Shown in pieces: positions 37,921-56,248 of a stretch of 64,000 bases of DNA (positions within the stretch are counted from its first letter, which is position 1; every line of letters starts with the position of its first letter). The notes beneath the pieces are model-generated. The model was not told where the DNA came from. It ran no database searches and worked only from the letters and a program-made list of their open reading frames with translations. The stretch lies in contig JARDVH010000140.1 of the NCBI GenBank assembly GCA_030324005.1, positions 18,239,106-18,303,105 of the forward strand, given 5' to 3'. Both the position numbers and the translations under genes were made by a program. The DNA is from Negaprion brevirostris (lineage: Eukaryota).

Positions 37921-38449
37921 GAGTGTTTATTAAATAAATATCCTAGATAAAAAAAATATACTGAATCATGAAAGACTTCAAAAAAAGTTAATTTTGTAAA
38001 TAATTTCAACTTGAGCATAAAGTTAGCAATGACCACTTATTTCAACTGTGGTAAAAAAAAAATTAGATCCTTCTCATTCTCTGACAGTGGTTTTATTCCT
38101 AATAATTCTTCTACGCTTGAGAGAGAGAGAGCCAGGACAGTTATAAAGGGAGGCTGTGACAGAGGAGAGCGGTGCTTTAAATAAAAATCATAACTAAAAC
38201 AGGTTTGTCCTCATCAGAAGTTCATTGAAAGTAAATTCCAAACAAGGGTGACTGGATTAGGCAAAATTCAAGCTGACTTTTCTTGCCAATTTTTCTTAGA
38301 TAGGCTCTTATAATCAGCAGTAACATACATCTTCCACCGTCTCAAAGCTGGTATCTCGGAACAAAAAGAATTTTGCTACTTGGCACAGAGTACTGGATTC
38401 CCAAGGTTTTACTATTTGAGATTAAACGTTAGGTACCTAGTGTACTTAC

Positions 38450-38518
38450 CCATCGCCATCCAAATGGATCAATGTGTCACTCCATAATGGAAGAACCAGG
38501 CCCATTGTGCAAGTACTG
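38450..38518 (-). CDS. SSH2: SSH2 coding exon (approx. exon 6): STCTMGLVLPLWSDTLIHLDGDG
   Basis: Contains the conserved LPLWSDT/HLDGDG motifs. Acceptor ctttgCAGCAG (tandem), donor GG|gtaagt. 69 nt. Confidence 0.96.
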
Positions 38519-39123
38519 CTGCAAAGATAATATAATCTAAAATTAGCACTGTTTTTGTATACTTTGTAGCACTGTTTTACGCAGATACTTTCAGCAGAAA
38601 CTACTACAGAGAAGGCATAGCAAAACTGGAACTAGAGTAGATCTGGGCTCGTAAGCCTAAGTACTGTCTGTCTCAGCTCATGTACGGTTGAAAAAAATGA
38701 AAAATATATTTTAACTTGCAAGTGTTAAACACTTGTAGATATAAAGAAATAAATTTGGTAATGGGTTGAAGCACCTTGCATGGTATATTTTCTCTTCTTT
38801 CCCCAACCCAAAGGATCTTCCTTTCCCACCTTCCAAGCAGATACTTAGCTCAAGTTCAGGGAGAGAAACAAACTTGAAGCCTTGAATTGCAATCATTTTT
38901 CTCTCAAATCTTGGACTTTCTAAACTCCTCAGTGTATGTCAATAAGAAAAATCAAGATCAGTGATTCATCTTCAATAAAGCAGTAATATCAGTTAACACC
39001 CACAGAGAGTTAGCAAATATGTTGCATTCTTAATAAGAGAGCAGAACCACACATGATAAATAGGATTAAGCTGTATGACATGCAGCTTCTTTTCCCAAAA
39101 CACTTCAGTTGCATTATCGAGTC

Positions 39124-39363
39124 ATTATTTAGTTTGGATTATGCGAAATGGGCCCTTTTTTGTCCCTCTTTCACAATGGTTCATTCTGTTTGTCTTTGTC
39201 CATCTCTCCCTCCTTTCATCTCTGAGTAATTTAGCCTTGTTAGGTTTTAACCAGCAATTGTTCATCATTTTTGATGCAGTAATATCTATTTTCAAACTCA
39301 TAGCACATCTTAATTAATAGAATTACCTTTGCCCAAAAGATTATTGCCAATATAATTAGATGT
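39124..39363. repeat. Left arm (core) of a long inverted repeat paired with 41775-42046
   Basis: Includes a perfect 31-nt match (ccctctttcacaatggttcattctgtttgtc) and an approximately 120-nt block with few mismatches against the reverse complement of the right arm. Confidence 0.92.
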
Positions 39364-40573
39364 AGTCCAAGAATATTTAACTATGCATGTAGCTGATCAC
39401 AGCCTGAAGTATGCAGATGTGATCATCTCTGGCTGTCTAAACATACTATGGGACACCAAGTTCACACATTATCCTGACTGGAACATACATTTGCAGTTCA
39501 TCATTGGATCAAAAATCTAGGAATTCATTATCTGATGTGGAAACAAGTTTGCAGGAACTGCAGCAATTAAAAAGGTTGATTAACATCTGCTTAGGACAAA
39601 CAAAAAATGTGATCCAGTCAGCATCACCTACATCCATGAACATTTTAAGAGTGAATGCATTTGTTTACTTTCAGTTCTTGTGCTTTTTACTAATCGTCCA
39701 CACTCTTACCAGTGTACTTCTGTTAAAACAACAGGTAGCCAAAGTTAAGTTGTAAGCTTAAAATTATTTATGGAAAATTTATGGAAGCTGCATTGATCTT
39801 ACATAAATGGGTATGAATTTTGGTGTGCAAAAAACCACAACCAGGGTGCACCAAAATTTAGTCTTCATACACATCCTGGACTCCTGAGTGTTTCATCTCA
39901 GCAATAAAAAAAGCACCAGCATAAATATTTGTTAGGTTCAGGAAAGGCTATACAAAACTACAGCAGAAATATCTGATGCTACACCTATCCATTCAGCAAT
40001 GTCCATCATCCCATCTGAATGGTACTAGCAATATCAGACACATTTTCTGGTAGAAAGACAGCCATACAAAGACTTGGAGCTTGGTACCCGATTGTCACAA
40101 GTATCCTCAAATACATTTTTAAATCTTTAAGATGAAATCAATTACACGCAAGGCTAAAGATTTGTTTTGCAGAATGAGCACCGTTGAGCTTCAGCATGCC
40201 AAAAAATAATTTAAGTCAGGAAAACTATATTGTCATACATTTACTGGGTCAAACCCCTGGAACTATCCCCCCCCCAACAATACTGTGTGTGTGTTCCCGT
40301 AGTGCTCCAGGAACACCACCATCTCCTCAAGAGCAATTACGGATGGACAATAAACATTAGCCTATCCAGCAACACTCACCCGCCCCCCCAAAAAATGACA
40401 GACTTATTCTGAGCAAACTTCCATTTTCTCTTACACATTGTTCCACTGAATCCCCAGGTTTATTTTTTCTTAGGAGTGATTCACCTTAACAACATCACCC
40501 AAAGGACAGGCAATATAGAAACATTTAAAAGACAGATATCTGCTTTGTGCAGAAATTGTTTGAACCAGCATAT

Positions 40574-40856
40574 GGGCAACACCGTGGCACAGTGGTCAAC
40601 ACTGCTGCCTTAGTGCCAGGGACTCAGGTTCAATTCCACCTTGTTTGTGTGGGTTTCCTCAGAGTGCTCCAGTTTCCTCCCACACTCCAAAGATGTGCAG
40701 GTTAGGCAGATTCGCCATGCTAAATTGCCCATTAGCAGTCAGGCAGATTAACAGGGTAATTATGTGGGGTTACAGGGATAGGACCTGGGTGGGGTTGTCA
40801 TCGGTGCAGACTCGATGGGCTGAATGGCCGCCTCCTGCGCTGTAGGGATTCAGTGA
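40574..40856 (+). mobile_element. V-SINE/HE1-like SINE
   Basis: gggcaacaccgtggcacagtggtcaacactgctgcc head, body and CR1-like tail. Confidence 0.9.
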
Positions 40857-41774
40857 AAGTGTAAATGAATATGCATGTTTCAATTTTACATTATTGGATA
40901 TAATTTAACATAACTACTTATGCAGGCCTGACTTTGGAAACCCTATTCATTCATTGTGATTATTACTGTGTAGCATTGCTAGAGAGAGCAGCAGTGCTCA
41001 GGGAGACAGTCAACACAAATAACTTGTGTTGACTGCACAAAGTGACCTCATGGAAAGTTTTATAAAAAGCTCCCAATGATCAGAGATTATTGTTGGGTCC
41101 TCCCCCAGCCACATGCTCAAACCGTTTCTAATTGCACCCTGTAACAGGATGGCACTCGAGAACCACTATCCTCAACCATGCAACTATATAAAGAGTGTGT
41201 GTTGTTTTGTTTACATAGCAACAAGCAGACATACATCAACATGAACCTGACAGATACAATGCTAGTTATTTTAAACTTTAAAACTTATTTGCTTCATAAG
41301 ATCTAAAGTTTAGAGAAACGGTGCACATTGACATTGGAAGACAGTCACAGCAGGAAGATCTTTAAAACAGCATTTTCAACCTTATGTCAGGACATCATTG
41401 ATAAAAAACCTTTATCCATCCACTGATAAAGAAAGCTTACGAATGTATGTAGGGGACATGAGCTCCTATCAGAAAACAAAGTATGTTATTCGAGTAAGAT
41501 TACTTAGGTCATGTGAAATTTCTCTCTTGTCATTTAACACAGATTTCTTCTGTGGGGATCTTTTGTTGGTGGTATTTTGCCCTAGCTTGCTGATGCAACG
41601 TTTAGCATTTTATGAATAAAGGTTTAATGTTCAGTGCAGAGATCTGCTGGCAAGAAGCCAGTTAACATCTTTCAGGCTCAGACTCAAGCTACATTATAAA
41701 TCAGTTGTGTGTCTTTACAGAATGTCTAAAGGTTATTTTAGACTCATTACTGTAATCTTATCACACATTAGTCC

Positions 41775-42046
41775 ACATCTAATTATATTGGCAATGACAT
41801 TTTGGGAAAAGGTAATACTATTAATAGAGGGGTGCTACAATCTGAAAATAGAAATTACTGCAGCAAAAATAATGAACAATTGATGGCTAAAAAGAACGCA
41901 ACATACCCAGCAGGAGAGTAAGGGTAAATAAGCCAGACAGGGGAAAGGAAGGCGAGGTGGAAGGACAAACAGAATGAACCATTGTGAAAGAGGGGAGAAA
42001 AAAAAATCAACCCAGGGCCCATTTCACATTATCCAAAGTAAATAAT
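41775..42046. repeat. Right arm (core) of the long inverted repeat
   Basis: acatctaattatattggcaat...gacaaacagaatgaaccattgtgaaagaggg...gggcccatttcacattatccaaagtaaataat is the reverse complement of 39124-39363, with indels. Confidence 0.92.
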
Positions 42047-42496
42047 CAATGTTTTAACAAGATACAGTAATTATTAGCATCAATTTAAAAAACAAGCATG
42101 ATATCCAAGAATGGCTAAAATCATAATCATTATTTCTAATATTATGTTGACTAAAAGTATTTGTTAAATCATGAAACAAATCCTAATTGTTAAAAAACAA
42201 CAAAAACATTTTCTGCATGAATAAGCTGATTTAATTAATACACAAACAAGCATTCTGTAACAACAAGGAGTCAGTTACAAGGCATTCATTCCAGCAGAGG
42301 GGTCACATCACAAAATGTGACAACCAAACCCTTATGGCTAATCATGTTACCTGAATCCTTCAAAAGTAATTATTCTGCGTTATAATTTCAGTATTTATTT
42401 CAGTCTTACATCTTCACTGTATTAAAGCAATGAAAGTTTCACCACCAATTACATATGCTGGTAAAGTGGCAACCGTCCAAGTATGATGTTTCTTAC

Positions 42497-42615
42497 CTAT
42501 CCTTGAAGAAATCCATTCCTAATACAATACTTTCTTCTGTATCTTGTCTGCCATTGGTGGAAACTACCACCATGTACCGCGTTAGATCCAGGTACGCACT
42601 TTCCAACCGCACAGC
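42497..42615 (-). CDS. SSH2: SSH2 coding exon (approx. exon 5): AVRLESAYLDLTRYMVVVSTNGRQDTEESIVLGMDFFKD(S)
   Basis: Hand translation matches the Slingshot N-terminal domain. Acceptor ttccag, donor AG|gtaaga. 119 nt. Confidence 0.96.
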
Positions 42616-43445
42616 CTGGAATTATTTAAAAAGAAAATTTTCTGAAAAAAGTTCAGATTAAAATCTTGATTGAATAAAGCCAAATATATTAGGTCAATTT
42701 ATTACACCTTCTCTCAATCTGGGGATAACTATCCAGTTTGCCTGACTATCAGTATTTATTTCACAAAGGTAGACTGTGCCTACAAACATAGCAACATACA
42801 AGTCAATATCTAAATGTACGTTCAGTGACATGGGAATGCTTATAGTCACCTGATCATAAATACAAGCTAGTTTACAGCTATTGCCAAATCCTTTAACTTG
42901 GATTGGTCATTGCAAAGTACTAAAAGACCAACACATTCTAGTATGATTTCTGTTAAAACTAAACCCTCATTTTTGTTCACTGACCATGATAAACAGAAGA
43001 ATTGGCATGTGGTATGGCTTGTGTATAGTTAAATATTAAAAAAACAGCCTGCTCAGCTATTAAATAAGATCTATTAAGGCTGATCTTGAACCTCACTTTC
43101 CCGCCATAATAACAAAGCTTGAAATGCTTTGTTCCATAAATATTGCAAATATGATTGGATGGAACCTGACCTGTCACAGGCCACTTTTGATTTCAATTTT
43201 GGCACCATTGAACTGAGTGGCTTGTTAGTGTTATGGTTCAGATTGGAAACTCCGATGTGTTTTATGAAGCCTGTCTGAATCGTAAGTTTTGCATTGAATT
43301 TGGCCAGGATAAGAATGAGATGTTTCACTTCAGGTATGATTCAAGTAACCCACTAGGGAGGTTTCATCAAACAAAATTTACTTAAGAATATAATTAACAT
43401 GTATACTAAGAAAATTAGCAAGCAGTTTTATCAAACAAGAAACAA

Positions 43446-43579
43446 GAAAGAAGTCTCACAACACCACCTGATGAAGGAGCAGTGCTCCGAAAGCTCGTGA
43501 TACCAAATAAACCTGTTGGACTCAACCTGGTGTTGTGAGACTTCTTACTGTGCCCACCGCAGTCCAATGCCATCTCCAC
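43446..43579 (+). mobile_element. Penelope-like element terminal fragment with inverted 5' segment and long TSD
   Basis: Perfect 19-bp inverted repeat (43448-43466 / 43528-43546), internal aataaa, and flanking duplication atcaaacaagaaacaa / atcaagcaagaaacaa (15/16). Confidence 0.75.
43465..43499 (+). ncRNA. Minimal type-I hammerhead ribozyme motif
   Basis: CAC-CTGATGA-A-GGAGC(agt)GCTCC-GAA-AGCT-C-GTG: stem I CAC/GTG, catalytic core, 5-bp stem II, palindromic stem III and a UC cleavage site after 43496. Confidence 0.75.
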
Positions 43580-46500
43580 ATCAAGCAAGAAACAATAATA
43601 ATGTAAAACCCTTAACAAATATCTCTACAATGTTCCAGTCAAACTAATCCCACAGACAACAGATGCTCTTCACAGATTTAACACAATACAGACTTATGCT
43701 CACGTGATACTGGGATCAAGGCCGTTAGTTGAATTCTGCAGTCAAATGCTCTTGAGACTCAGAACAGTGTGAAGACAAGACAGCATCCCAAAACACCAGA
43801 GACACTCTGGTCCAGCCCCCAAAAACAGCAGATTTTCACCCTTCAGGCAAACAAGANNNNNNNNTCAGCAAACCAATGTAGTTTTCAAATCAACAGGGAG
43901 AGAGGGAAAACATTTCTTTTCACTTGCTGTCCCTTCTAAAGCTAAACACGTAAACATGCAGCTCCAAACAAACTGAAATCTGTCACCCGACCTGCCCAGT
44001 CTTTTTTCTCCTCCCAATGACATCAGCTAAGGCTACGAGTATGAATTAAAAAAATAACTCAAAAGAAGATACATTAACATCACATGTGGCTGACTCTTAA
44101 TTGTCCTATTTCAGAGGACAATTAAGAGTCAGCCACATTTCTGTAGGTCTGGAGTCAAATGTCGGCCAGATCAGGTAAGGGCGCATGTAACTGAACTAGA
44201 TCAGTGACAACAATCAATGACAGTTGCCATAATCATCATTAGTGAAACAAGCTTTACATTCTAGATTTTATTCATTCAATTCAAATTGCACCAACTGGTC
44301 TGGTGGAAAATATCCAAAAACAAATGTAGGTTTTTTAATCCAACCTGCATAATGAAACAGTGGATATCCATTCATATAAATGGGGCTCAAAAAAACTCAC
44401 CGTCCCATTCTTTCCCACCATACTCAGTAGAATCTTACAGCAAAAAAGCAAAAGGTTCTAAAGACTTAATTTAGGCTAGACAGAACACTCCTTGGCTCTC
44501 ACAAGCAAAATATGCAGATCTGCATTCTCAGGTTTCCCCCACCTCAGCACTTCCTACCCATGAACTACTACCAAAACCATCCCCTTACAATGTATCTGTA
44601 CAAGTAGATGGCCTGATCTTTGCCCATCAGCAACTCGTTAGTTGTCTCTTTCTTGATTTTTAGGAAGACCAATGGTGAGGGTGATGCAAATCAGGCCTGG
44701 AAGTCAAGATATTCCAGGGTTCAAATTTACACTGTCGGGAGGGACGGAGTGGGAAATCTGTACACCCGTGTGTGTATCCTCACACATCCTTCATTAAAAT
44801 TCTATCCAGACAATGCTGTCTATCATAGTACCACAAAAGATCTTGGCGACCAACGCACTTCATTATCACCTGCCACATCACAAGATTTACTGTAACGCGC
44901 ACTTAGTTTTCCCAAGAGAAGTTGCAAAGTAAACTTCCTAAACATTTGTGCAGCAACAGGAGTTATTTTTAGCTATCTATTACCAATAGCAACTTTCATG
45001 CTGTGTTAGGTTTACAATAACCAAATTAGTATAATTCACATTTATAAGAACAGGCTCTTTGTGGAACTTGCATAATTGCACAGGACATCCACCTTATTTT
45101 CACCCTTTTTTGTCTCACTATAAACCATATCTCAGCTGCTTACTCAATGATTTCTGAAAATGCTAATCTTGAGTTGGTTTCTAGGAGTTAGAAGAGGGCC
45201 CTATTTTAAAACTAATTCACCTTCAGACTTCTAAATTTTCCTGAGTTAAAAAAATGTTGCATTTATATCATGCCCTTTTCAACTTCATGAAGTCACTGTT
45301 ACAACACAAGGAAATGCAAAAGTCAATTCTGTGCTTAACGAGCCCAAGTGTCCAAATAACCAATTTTAGTACTATGGGTTGAGGAATAAATATTTGGCAG
45401 GACATGTGCAGACCTTCACTACTCTCTTCCAAATTCTGCCATGGGTGCTTTAAATGCACCCAAAAGGGACCTTGATTGAACATTGCATTCTAAAAGGTAA
45501 TTCCAAAAGTATACTGTTCATGTAATATTACACTGGAGTGCTAGCTGAGATCCTCCAAATCCTTATGGGGATTGCTCTGATTCCCATGGCGGGAGGGACG
45601 GTAAAATTCCGGCCTTAGACTCAATAAATTTAATTTATTAATGTCATGCCTTATAGTGAGGGCAGACCAATTTATGGTTAAGCAGGAGGAGAGTGAGGAA
45701 GCTGTTTCTGTTGCAAGGTACTTTCAATGCAGCTTCTAGATCTAAAAGGCACCTTAAGGAATTTCAATAAAACAGCTGGTAACATTTGTTTGTGTTATTT
45801 CATGGGGTGTCAGCATGACAATGCCAATATTTATTTCCCTTCCCAGCTGCCGTCAAGCCTCCTTTTTGAACTGCTATAGCTTGAATGATGTGGCAATGCC
45901 CAGAGTGCTTTCAGGTAGAGAATTTCAGCATTTTGACCGAATGTTGAAGGAATGACGATATTTTAAAATAAACTTTATTTATTAGTCACAAGTTGATTTA
46001 AATTTACTGTGAAAATATTTTCCAAGTAGGATAGTGTGGGTGACTTAGAGATGGTAACGTTCCCATGCAATGGTTGCGCTAGTTCTAGATTTGAAAGCTG
46101 CTGACAAAGGAGCATTAATGAGTTTCCTCCATATATTTTATGGATAACACTTACTGCAGCCACATAGTGTCAGTGTTGGAGGAAGTGAATGCTAAAGGTA
46201 ATAAGTATTTATGGAATATGGAAAATTGGTAACAGGGAAGGTAAACTCATTGAATAGATGTAATAGATTATACNNNNNNNNNNNNNNNNNNNNNNNNNNN
46301 NNNNNNNNNNNNNNNNNNNNNNNNNNNNNNNNNNNNNNNNNNNNNNNNNNNNNNNNNNNNNNNNNNNNNNNNNNNNNNNNNNNNNNNNNNNNNNNNNNNN
46401 NNNNNNNNNNNNNNNNNNNNNNNNNNNNNNNNNNNNNNNNNNNNNNNNNNNNNNGACACCATACACTCAGTTCCCTCCTCCAGATCATCTATATAAATGG

Positions 46501-48152: not shown

Positions 48153-50103
48153 TGTTAAGAATCTAAATACGAAGCTAGAAAAATGTTAAATATAGGTGTA
48201 ATGTCAAAACCATGTTAAGGGTGTGAGTTTTTGCATAAAAAGGAGAAATGTGGTTTGTACATGTGAATTCAAAGTAACAGATTTATTGAAGAAATGTTCT
48301 CTGCTCTGCACCAATTACAAAATTGGAAGTAAAATAGCAGCCTGCGGCAACACCCTAATGACATCACCATCAAATCATGTGATCAGCTCTTAAAGCAATC
48401 TGCAAACCGTTTAAATATATAAAAAGGTTACAATTTGACACTATTTTCAAGTTTTACTATGAATCTGGCAATTGAGTATAGCAGATATTGGATGGATAGT
48501 GTGAAGAAAATAATGGTAATTTTAAGGGATTTATATTTCTAAACATTAGAAATAAGGTACAGTTTTAAGTGGGTTTAATTTAACATTTCCCTGCCTGGAA
48601 GAGTAAAACCTTTAAGCGTGGGGGTTGTTTTCAATTCCGCTATGATTCTATTGTGCTCAAGGGGGTTAGGATATGAAGAGTAAATGGAAGTAAGTTTTTG
48701 CATAGCAACAGGAGACCACTTTCCAGAAGGAAGGGCTTTCCTTTGTTCATAGTTTTAAGAGCATTTGGAGACAGGAACTGGGGAGTGAACAGCTCCCAAT
48801 TCTGTCAGAAGATGATGCAAAGCTCTAACTTCCTAAGAAACAAAATACAATCCAGATAACTAGGGAATTGGGACAGAAAGAACGTTTAACACAACTGGAG
48901 TTAAGAGAACAGAGATCAAGGTGTTGTTCAGAAGAATTCAAGGTAAGGAAATGCAGGGTTCTGATTAAAGAAGCAATTGCAGTAAACAGATTTAAAGTGG
49001 AAAAGCAAACTTCAGATGTAAATCAGAAGTGTTTATGACTACAAGTTTATTTTATTTATTTGTCATAGGTAGGTTTACATTAACATCGACATGAAGTTAC
49101 TGTGTAAATCCCATTTTACTACAGACTGGAAATTGAGAATTAAAGCAATTATGAATAGCTTGCACAGCAGTCAAGCCAAAGAAATCCTAAAGGGGTCAGT
49201 GTAAATCCTGAACTAGACTTCTGGTTAAAAGTGGAGCAGAAGTTTTATTTAAAAGTGTAATTGGAAAAGCTGGACTGAATTTCAGAATGCCAATCACTAA
49301 GGGAAAGCATATTCCTAGAAGTCATCGAATCCCGATAGTGCACGTGGCCATTCAACCCATCAAGTCTGTACTGACTCTGTGATATAATACCTTACCCAGA
49401 CCTTTTCTCCCACCCTTAACCCTACATATTTCCCATTGCTAATCCATCTAACCTACACATCTTGAGACACTAAGATGCAATTTAGCATAACTAATCCACC
49501 TAACCTGCACATCTTTGGAGTGTGGGATGAAACTGGAGCACCCAGAGGAAACACACACAGACACAAGGAGAATGTGTAAACTCCAGAGACACCCAAGGCT
49601 GGAATTGAACCTGGGTCCCTGGCGCTGTGAGACAGCACTGCTAGCCACTATTGATATTGAGAGAAGATTTTAAAGCATGTTTTTGGGAATAGAGTTTGAA
49701 AACTTCCATGAGACAATCATCTGGCAGGAATTTTGGGAAGAAATCCACAAACACTAACTTGGGTTCAGAGTGGAGTGCATGTATTTGATCACAGCCAATC
49801 TCGTCTGTTAATGAGACCATTGTAGCTTAATCAACTAAGGAGTGAGCATCTGATCTACGTGCATGACATTACTTTGTAAACAGTGTTAATCTTAAAATCT
49901 GTGTATTTATTAAGCCAAAGGGGGAATAAAGGAGTATAAGAGAATTCAATTTTTGCATGTTCAATAAATGCTTTTTCCTTGTTAAAACTAGTTTGACCCT
50001 CTTCCTTCATGTTTTATTAAAAAAAGCAAAAGTTTTAGTCTTTCAGCCAGGGTTCCATTCTGGGATTTCCCATTCAGCTATAAAACCAACAGCAATTATA
50101 ACA
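48153..50103 (+). mobile_element. Solo LTR (Gypsy-like) with nested SINE insertions
   Basis: Termini TGTTAAGA...TTATAACA flanked by a perfect 4-bp TSD ATAG/ATAG, with aataaa near the 3' end. Contains SINE 49320-49650 and a SINE tail at about 49043-49112. Confidence 0.8.
49320..49650 (-). mobile_element. V-SINE/HE1-like SINE
   Basis: Reverse of tagtggctagcagtgctgtctcacagcgccagggacccaggttcaattcc head, body and tail. Confidence 0.9.
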
Positions 50104-50669
50104 ATAGGAACACCTACACCATGATGAGTGTACACTTGATGACTACAATAAATAACTACACTATGACAGCCATTTTTCTTTTATTTAAAATGTGATTTAT
50201 CCTTTTCTTTCCAGATTCCATTTCCAAAACTATGCATCATCCTTCACTGAACATCATTAAGTGAGTTCACTGACTACTGCCAGCACTTCTCTGGGTCAGC
50301 AGTAAGGAATATATAAAAGATCTCTGAATTGGTACCCTAACTTTCTAACTCCCACCAATGTAAAAAAAAATGCCTTCTTCACACGCTTGCAACTCACCAT
50401 AAATTAAATCCCCAACTTTAGTCAGGGCGAAGGGTAGCGGGTAGGGTTGAGTTAGTGAATCAATCCAATGTTTTTGCATTGAACGTTAAATGCAAGGTCA
50501 AAGTTGGCCAGTGTCATGCATATGATCAGACGCTCACTCCTCAGTTGATTCCATGATACATAGGAGTGCGAAAAAAGTAATTCAATTTCTGTGGGAAAAT
50601 TTCTGTCAATTTAGTCAAAGGCATGGTTCTGAAATGGCAGAGAAATGTGCATATACATGGATAACTCAC

Positions 50670-50734
50670 CAAACGGATGTTATCTTCAGGTCGAAGAAGG
50701 GTAAACATTGCTTGTAGGTGCTGCTGAAGGTCAC
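50670..50734 (-). CDS. SSH2: SSH2 coding exon (approx. exon 4): GDLQQHLQAMFTLLRPEDNIRL
   Basis: Lies within ORF 50541..50747. Acceptor tttcaag, donor TTG|gtgagt. 65 nt, with phase consistent with its neighbours. Confidence 0.96.
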
Positions 50735-51084
50735 CTTGAAAGACCAAAAAAAATTGTAAAGAGCTGGATACAGTAAAGTGAAAGCAATTCTGTCATTAAT
50801 AAGTCTTGATTATTTGTGATAGCTCATTGAATTTCAGTTGCCATAATCGCTTTGATCACTGATATATACATGATCACATGACTCTTCCACATATGCATAT
50901 TTTTCCATTTGTAGATAACATTTTAATCTTTATTTTACATGCACAAATCTCCTACTGTCATGCACTAGTTTCAAGTGAGGAAATAATTTAACCAATGATT
51001 TAATTCAGTTCTCATTATAAAAATAATACTTCTTGCCCTTTAAATTCTTATGTTCCTATATATAATAGAAACTGACACTGTAAA

Positions 51085-55887: not shown

Positions 55888-56248
55888 GGGACGACATGAT
55901 GGCACAGTGGTGAGTACTGCTGCTTTACAGCACCAGGAGCCCAGGTTCAATTCCAGCCTTGGGTGACTGCCTGTGTGGAGTTTGCACACTCCTCCCCTTT
56001 CGGCGTGAGTTTCCTCTGGGTGCTCTGGTTTCCTCCCACACTCCAAAGATGTGCAGGCTAGGTGGATTAGCCAAGCTAAGTTGCCTCTTAATGTCCCAAG
56101 ATGTGTGGGTTATGGGGATTAGTTGGGTAAATATGCAGGGTTATGGGGATAGGGTAGAGGGTGGGCCTGGATAAGATGCTCTGTTGGAGGGTCAGTGCAG
56201 ACTCGATGGACCAAATGGGTCTCTTCCTGCACTGTAGGGATTCTATAT
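55888..56248 (+). mobile_element. V-SINE/HE1-like SINE (near full length)
   Basis: gatggcacagtggtgagtactgctgc A-box region, ggttcaattcc B-box, body and gcactgtagggattcta tail. Confidence 0.92.

What the first reader, a model, noticed from the sequence alone, without database searches (positions are those of the whole stretch)
39124..42046. Long non-TE inverted duplication in SSH2 intron 5: predicted long-range pre-mRNA duplex looping out about 2.4 kb
Seen: 39124-39363 is the reverse complement of 41775-42046. It includes a perfect 31-mer (ccctctttcacaatggttcattctgtttgtc), a perfect 21-mer (attgccaatataattagatgt) and an approximately 120-nt block with only scattered mismatches. Patchy similarity continues inward (atgtagct..agcctgaa, acatacatt, aaggttga, to roughly 39800/41250) and weakly outward, so identity peaks in a central core rather than at the ends. 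In the 120-nt block I count 6 transition mismatches that are G-U compatible on the transcribed (minus) strand versus 3 that are not. The arms match none of the repeat families recognisable here, and I see no TIR/TSD signature. Inference: an old inverted duplication whose core has been maintained as an RNA stem. It could act as an RNA bridge shortening the 4-kb intron to about 1 kb, as an ADAR substrate, or as a hairpin small-RNA source. This is the best candidate for an undescribed element in the window.
Basis: partly seen in the sequence, partly recalled or inferred. Interest (0 to 1): 0.72.

Follow-up and report, generated by a model that had tools for sequence, protein, structure and literature searches.

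The report
Old inverted copy in SSH2 intron
A 250-base piece of one intron in a shark slingshot-phosphatase gene has a back-to-front copy 2.4 kb away, and the two are predicted to pair in the unspliced RNA, but the one copy that could be measured changes as fast as the rest of the intron, so it is likely an ordinary leftover of a DNA copying slip rather than a conserved RNA device.

Summary
The inverted repeat is real: 39124-39370 pairs with 41768-42046 (208 matches, 36 substitutions, 38 gap columns) inside a 3,978-nt intron of a slingshot (SSH2-type) gene. Both arms occur only here in the genome, with no target-site duplication or transposase, so it is not a transposon. The arms are predicted to pair in the pre-mRNA. 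The G-U bias (12 vs 5) is not significant, the perfect 31-mer is within chance, and the inward and outward tails are at shuffle level. In four related species (2-6% diverged) both arms are present and collinear, and the 5' arm diverges at the intron's rate or faster. Two other locus-specific inverted pairs occur in 1.35 Mb of background, and 67 of 212 nearby inverted pairs form duplexes at least as strong. Strand skew points to the 3' arm as the inverted copy, with the loop not inverted. One hint remains: in one relative the arms seem to share a perfect 30-mer where ours differ at five sites (neutral p about 0.02-0.1). Verdict: most likely a neutral local inverted duplication. Editing and splicing were not testable.

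The parts
41768..42046 (-). 5' arm of the inverted repeat (first transcribed; likely the source copy, T-rich on the sense strand)
   Evidence: sense TA skew +0.38; two-copy in genome
39124..39370 (-). 3' arm (likely the inserted inverted copy; skew reversed)
   Evidence: sense TA skew -0.24; two-copy in genome
39164..39194 (.). perfect 31-mer, partner 41964-41994
   Evidence: contig breaks suggest it is still a perfect shared 30-mer in 1 of 4 relatives
39343..39363 (.). perfect 21-mer, partner 41775-41795
39371..41767 (.). 2,397-nt spacer; single-copy in the two parts searched, apart from one SINE-like repeat; skew of the normal sense-strand sign
   Evidence: 0 of 16 ORFs (loop and 5' arm) with a Pfam hit
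40584..40851 (.). high-copy SINE-like repeat inside the loop, 8-9% from the majority of its closest copies
   Evidence: (433 hits in the sample)
42497..42615 (-). upstream slingshot exon; donor GT at 42496
38449..38518 (-). downstream slingshot exon; acceptor AG ends at 38519 (tandem acceptor)
38519..42496 (-). host intron, 3,978 nt; 450 nt before the 5' arm and 605 nt after the 3' arm

Best explanation
The two arms are a single-locus inverted duplication, likely made by one template-switching DNA repair or replication event that copied about 250-280 nt of the intron back-to-front into a site 2.4 kb further along, and likely decaying since then as ordinary intron DNA. Shown: the repeat, its two-copy status, its sharp ends and its presence in four relatives. 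Inferred: the 5' arm is the source and the loop kept its orientation (strand skew); the age is about 7-8% substitution per arm, similar to the SINE-like copy in the loop. Predicted only: the arms pair in the pre-mRNA and would be an incidental ADAR substrate, like the many inverted repeat pairs in this genome. An occasional arm-to-arm conversion is not excluded.
For: Two copies only, while the same search finds a dispersed repeat at about 80% identity (40 scored of 91 candidates). 19 of 36 substitutions are transversions, and G-U 12:5 gives p=0.14 two-sided, or 0.15-0.21 one-sided if sense-strand mutation bias sets the expectation at 0.55-0.58 (assumed values). Perfect runs are within permutation range. 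Word shares of the 5'-arm stretch in four relatives (15, 8, 6 and 3 of 28) fit an arm rate of 1-1.5 times the intron rate; half the rate is 5.4 log-likelihood units worse than the best fit, a quarter 12 units worse. Run X14 has three deletions in the 5' arm (41895, 41951, 41998). The 31-mer seems retained in 1 of 4 relatives, against 1.4 expected under neutrality. Background: 2 other locus-specific inverted pairs in 1.346 Mb (1.5 per Mb, 95% CI 0.18-5.4). 67 of 212 inverted pairs with spacers up to 3 kb have duplex energy at least as low (focal pair included). Loop keto skew is +0.061 +/- 0.022, the same sign as eight other SSH2 intron stretches (+0.020 to +0.068), while the 3' arm has reversed skew.
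Against: Of 32 differences seen in at least 3 of 4 relatives, only 2 fall in the arms (4.9 expected; p=0.11, or 0.19 after removing 88 nt not callable in three runs) and 0 in the BLAST-defined core (p=0.006 binomial, 0.026 against random windows; biased because that core's ends are set by our own mismatches). Both of those 2 turned a Watson-Crick pair into G-U on the transcribed strand. In run X19 contig ends at mirror positions (41832-41861 and 39276) imply a perfect shared 30-mer where our arms differ at 5 events: neutral p=0.008 for that species, 0.023 for any of four, and about 0.1 for any new shared 30-mer. It is the longest of the four low-copy inverted pairs in the sample. The 3' arm's rate in relatives was not measured, only 40 of 441 difference rows were shown, and no distant species was examined.
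Confidence: 0.7

Rival explanations
1. Selected long-range RNA duplex: pairing, not primary sequence, is kept because it shortens the intron to about 1 kb, masks cryptic splice sites in the arms or loops out a pseudo-exon from the SINE-like repeat.
For: Predicted pairing in the whole intron. Mild G-U excess 12:5. The two arm changes polarised by at least three relatives are G-U compatible, and such changes are few in the arms. The shifted perfect 30-mer in X19. Acceptor-like sites in the 5' arm and one of the three best donor-like sites (39326) in the 3' arm lie in the duplex (simple heuristic); human PCCRs are reported to obstruct cryptic sites (PMC8052449, passages).
Against: No slowdown of the 5' arm. 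19 transversions and 38 gap columns. The change at 42018 in X7 and X14 would break a pair unless its partner also changed, which was not visible. Other SSH2 introns of 7-8 kb have no such single-copy pair. Duplexes this strong are common.
Confidence: 0.14
2. Neutral duplicate kept partly alike by recurrent arm-to-arm gene conversion or template switching at the DNA level, with no RNA function.
For: The perfect stretch appears at different places in different species (39164-39194 here and in X12; 39276-39306 in X19). Arm homogenisation is described for short inverted repeats in yeast (PMC8604942, passages).
Against: One indirect event only, p 0.02-0.1. The yeast study covered spacers up to 70 bp, not 2.4 kb. 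Run lengths in our genome fit uniform decay.
Confidence: 0.09
3. Footprint of a 2.4-kb inversion made by staggered breaks, which leaves inverted duplications at both breakpoints.
For: The geometry matches the model in PMC1885836 (abstract): non-repetitive inverted duplications flanking a segment.
Against: The loop keeps sense-type skew (+0.061 +/- 0.022; 3' half +0.102, 5' half +0.007 and uninformative). The four relatives are collinear, but they postdate the duplication, so that says little.
Confidence: 0.04
4. Long terminal inverted repeats of a DNA transposon or foldback element, or two relics of a dispersed repeat.
For: Terminal inverted geometry; arms plus loop (2.9 kb) could be read as an insertion into a 1.05-kb intron, and the SSH1 paralog's intron is about 1.1 kb.
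Against: No third copy of either arm or of the two loop parts searched (positive control). No target-site duplication. No Pfam hit in 16 ORFs.
Confidence: 0.03

Closest known systems
Templated insertions from template switching: MMBIR-type MMB-TI (Osia et al. 2021, PMC8421209, abstract) and TSM hairpins (Monttinen et al. 2023, PMC10710096, abstract and opening text)
   Same: A nearby non-repetitive sequence copied once; TSMs create reverse-complement pairing in one event, often in introns.
   Different: Here the copy is about 250 nt, lies 2.4 kb from its template and is old. No pre-insertion allele is at hand, so junction microhomology is untested. It is not a short-loop hairpin.
[quoted passage not shown] 2021, PMC8052449, passages)
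   Same: Two intronic complementary regions under 10 kb apart with strong predicted pairing, overlapping cryptic-like splice sites.
   Different: PCCRs are defined inside conserved intronic regions and have a median length of 13 nt; the 5' arm here shows no slowdown. The paper's RNA-bridge search needs an arm within 50 nt of an exon; these arms are 450 and 605 nt away. 'SSH2' has 0 occurrences in the main text; the supplementary catalogue was not examined.
Non-repetitive inverted duplicates in Drosophila (Chen et al. 2011, PMC3176832, abstract)
   Same: Inverted duplicates outside repeats are reported as pervasive (20,223 in that genome).
   Different: Those are intergenic, and the authors argue for selection on an expressed subset; nothing comparable is shown here.
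Inverted duplications at staggered-break inversion breakpoints (Ranz et al. 2007, PMC1885836, abstract)
   Same: Non-repetitive inverted duplications on both sides of a segment.
   Different: The segment here does not look inverted.

Membership tests
PCCR / conserved long-range RNA duplex | Complementary regions of at least 10 nt, dG at most -15 kcal/mol, within 10 kb in one gene | tested here: met
   Duplex -272.5 kcal/mol, spacer 2,397 nt; criteria from PMC8052449
PCCR / conserved long-range RNA duplex | Arms lie in sequence more conserved than its flanks | tested here: not met
   5' arm rate 1-1.5 times the intron rate in four close relatives; weak contrary signal; 3' arm rate and distant species not measured
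PCCR / conserved long-range RNA duplex | Compensatory substitutions | tested here: inconclusive
   Only 40 of 441 difference rows seen; one indirect hint in X19; G-U bias p=0.14
PCCR / conserved long-range RNA duplex | Experimental double-strandedness, A-to-I editing or a splicing effect | not testable with these tools
   No raw RNA reads were available for this stretch
DNA transposon / MITE / foldback element | Further copies elsewhere in the genome | tested here: not met
   positive control
DNA transposon / MITE / foldback element | Target-site duplication | tested here: not met
   Outer flanks printed share no direct repeat; age could have erased one
DNA transposon / MITE / foldback element | Transposase remnant between the arms | tested here: not met
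   0 of 16 ORFs of at least 50 aa (loop and 5' arm) hit Pfam at E 0.01
Staggered-break inversion footprint | Inverted non-repetitive duplications at both ends | tested here: met
Staggered-break inversion footprint | Spacer inverted against the ancestral state | tested here: not met
   Indirect: loop skew has the normal sign; no outgroup lacking the duplication was seen
Templated insertion (MMB-TI / TSM) | Single copy of a nearby template | tested here: met
   Two copies 2.4 kb apart, sharp ends, reversed skew in one arm
Templated insertion (MMB-TI / TSM) | Microhomology at the switch points, judged against the pre-insertion allele | not testable with these tools
   All four relatives laid carry both arms
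miRNA-type hairpin | Local stem-loop with a stem of about 35 bp (PMC10710096) or an Rfam match | tested here: not met
   Loop is 2.4 kb; the only Rfam hit in 38400-42700 is far below its gathering score and lies in the loop

The most novel reading that the evidence does not exclude
A shark-specific RNA duplex born in one duplication and now co-evolving: the arms change at normal speed but in step, by compensation or arm-to-arm conversion over 2.4 kb, so that the stem keeps masking cryptic splice sites in both arms and loops out a SINE-derived pseudo-exon in SSH2.
Probability: 0.12. Interest if true: 0.55.

Novelty: new member of a known kind. Interest (0 to 1): 0.17.

Why it matters
As an ordinary result, it shows that single-copy inverted pairs in shark introns should not be read as functional from geometry alone: the background suggests thousands per genome (0.18-5.4 per Mb). 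If the novel case held, it would be a dated example of a long-range splicing structure arising in one mutation and then co-evolving, or of gene conversion between 85%-identical arms 2.4 kb apart. Either could be tested with more shark assemblies.

Tried and rejected
Extension beyond the arms: two scoring schemes, neither above shuffles. Rfam: one sub-threshold hit in the loop. SSH1 paralog locus (40 kb): no arm match better than E 0.03, and its equivalent intron is about 1.1 kb, so there is no evidence that the repeat predates the paralog split. Sequencing runs: no RNA holder listed, so nothing was learned on expression, editing or small RNAs. A site-by-site table of both arms in relatives was not obtained, so covariation stays open. 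Assembly artefact rejected: the arms differ at 36 sites plus gaps, there is no N between 38520 and 42496, and contigs of four other organisms cover both arms in the same order. Literature: 'SSH2 + intron + inverted repeat' (2 papers), 'shark + A-to-I + editing + inverted + intron' (9) and 'slingshot + SSH2 + RNA editing' (2); judged from the listings only, none describes this element. A search for a shark substitution rate gave nothing usable in its listing, so no age in years is given. Earlier scan notes by place and by sequence: none.

Full report
Observation. The repeat is real. BLAST of the window against itself gives 39124-39363 vs 42046-41775 at 74.2% over 275 columns. A gapped alignment runs 39124-39370 vs 42046-41768 with score 280 against 36.8 for shuffles. 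It has 208 matching columns, 36 substitutions and 38 gap columns. The 31-mer and 21-mer are as described. The claimed tails are not: the best inward patch is reached by 88 of 1000 shuffles, the wider inward block by 513, the outward blocks by 869 and 902.

Setting. The arms lie in a 3,978-nt intron (42496-38519, minus strand) between two exons that match the slingshot N-terminal domain PF23040. A downstream exon's best PDB match is SSH2. The SSH2 label, as opposed to SSH1, and the number '5' rest partly on my recall of the human genes. That the organism is a shark is inferred from the 'shark metagenome' labels among holders. The paralog on C133 has an equivalent intron of about 1.1 kb with no arm match. 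A high-copy SINE-like repeat sits in the loop at 40584-40851.

Not a transposon. Each arm finds only itself and its partner in 2.69 Gb (2 of 2 candidates; a 25-mer with up to 2 mismatches, 2 places). The two loop parts searched are single-copy. The same search does detect a dispersed family at about 80% identity from a 102-nt query. The flanks show no target-site duplication, and 0 of 16 ORFs in the loop and 5' arm hit Pfam.

Within-genome signs of selection. Transitions are 12 G-U compatible on the transcribed strand against 5 not (p=0.14), beside 19 transversions. Permuting the 43 events over 251 columns gives a run of at least 31 in 8.4% of trials. The duplex is predicted: -272.5 kcal/mol on the transcribed strand and -262.4 on the other, and 211 of 279 5'-arm bases pair with the 3' arm in the whole-intron MFE. 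That follows from any long inverted repeat.

Background. I self-aligned nine blocks of the genome, 1.41 Mb without N, of which 1.346 Mb lie outside the window. There are 640 inverted pairs of at least 100 nt within 10 kb. Four have no distant hit in the sample: this one and three others. Genome searches show two of the three to be locus-specific (155 nt at 85%, with two short partial hits elsewhere; 102 nt at 93%) and the third to be a local pair of a dispersed repeat. The rate is 1.5 per Mb (95% CI 0.18-5.4). The focal pair is the longest of the four. Of 212 inverted pairs with spacers up to 3 kb, 67 have a duplex energy at least as low, so an ADAR-type substrate of this strength is commonplace here.

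Relatives. Twenty-two runs from 12 studies hold part of the 5'-arm stretch. I laid 4 of them, all contigs, from organisms C, E, F and H. Long pieces differ from the window by 1.8-5.9% and cover both arms in the same order; the listed pieces do not span the whole 3' arm in X19. The arms differ from each other by 14.8%, so the duplication is older than these splits and its presence in all four is expected. Their word shares (15, 8, 6 and 3 of 28) fit a 5'-arm rate of 1-1.5 times the intron rate; rates of 0.5 or less are clearly worse (this assumes missing words are sequence differences). Contig breaks suggest that the 31-mer is still a perfect shared 30-mer only in X12, against 1.4 of 4 expected neutrally.

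Results against my reading. Only 40 of 441 difference rows were shown; 32 of the 40 are seen in at least three runs, and I assume all such rows were shown. Two of the 32 lie in the arms (39364, 41770) against 4.2-4.9 expected (p=0.11-0.19), and both are Watson-Crick to G-U changes. None lies in the BLAST-defined core (p=0.006), but that boundary is set by our own mismatches. In X19, one contig ends at 41861, the next begins at 41832, and a left-arm contig begins at 39276, the exact mirror of 41861. This is the pattern of a 30-mer shared by both arms, at a place where ours differ at five events. Neutral simulation gives 0.008 for that species, 0.023 for any of four, and about 0.1 for any new shared 30-mer. 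The inference is indirect; I did not see those letters.

Origin. Sense-strand keto skew is +0.020 to +0.068 in eight other stretches of the gene, +0.061 +/- 0.022 in the loop, +0.15 in the 5' arm and -0.09 in the 3' arm. The simplest reading is that the 5' arm is the original, the 3' arm an inverted copy, and the loop not inverted, which disfavours the staggered-break inversion model (PMC1885836, abstract). About 7-8% change per arm matches the 8-9% by which the SINE-like copy in the loop differs from the majority of its closest copies (a lower bound, since unclear columns were dropped). The repeat thus needs no special preservation. A template-switch origin is inferred by analogy with MMB-TI and TSM events (PMC8421209 and PMC10710096, abstracts); the junctions could not be tested.

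Comparison. It has the geometry and energy of a PCCR but fails the conservation criterion where I could test it (PMC8052449, passages; the supplementary catalogue, which might list human SSH2, was not examined). It fails the transposon and miRNA tests. Three literature searches (listings only) showed no description of it. Earlier scan notes describe similar single-copy intronic inverted pairs in other genomes and read them mostly as decaying duplications (unchecked AI notes).

Verdict. Most likely a neutral local inverted duplication (0.70). A selected RNA duplex (0.14) or conversion between arms (0.09) remains possible on the X19 hint and the mild deficit of shared changes. Interest 0.17.

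Noticed in passing
window 38516-38521 (minus strand): Tandem (NAGNAG-type) acceptor at the intron's 3' end; the second AG would drop one serine.
   Followed up: no
window 40840, 40484, 40379 (minus strand): An acceptor-like site at one end of the SINE-like repeat and two of the intron's three best donor-like sites downstream of it: a possible pseudo-exon inside the loop (heuristic scan).
   Followed up: no
window 41818-41887 and 39326 (minus strand): Several acceptor-like sites in the 5' arm and a donor-like site in the 3' arm fall inside the predicted duplex.
   Followed up: partly
window 49324-49649 / 55906-56246: Inverted pair of SINE-like copies flanking the exon at 50667-50735, with a stronger predicted duplex (-434 kcal/mol) than the focal pair; could favour skipping or circularisation.
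   Followed up: no
G000:C140:5104778-5105309 (L037) and G000:C140:35156680-35158456 (L102): Two further locus-specific inverted pairs (155 nt at 85%; 102 nt at 93%), used as background. The second has 100 N in its spacer, so a scaffolding artefact is possible.
   Followed up: partly
window 44084-44138 and 43445-43549: A perfect 24-bp hairpin with a 7-nt loop, and a 22-bp inverted pair with a 61-nt loop, in the upstream intron. The first partly matches 455-510 of the window, so it may be a small repeat.
   Followed up: no
L009 (G000:C133:35680250-35681346): The SSH1 paralog's equivalent intron is about 1.1 kb, close to the 1,055 nt left outside the arms in SSH2; probably coincidence.
   Followed up: partly
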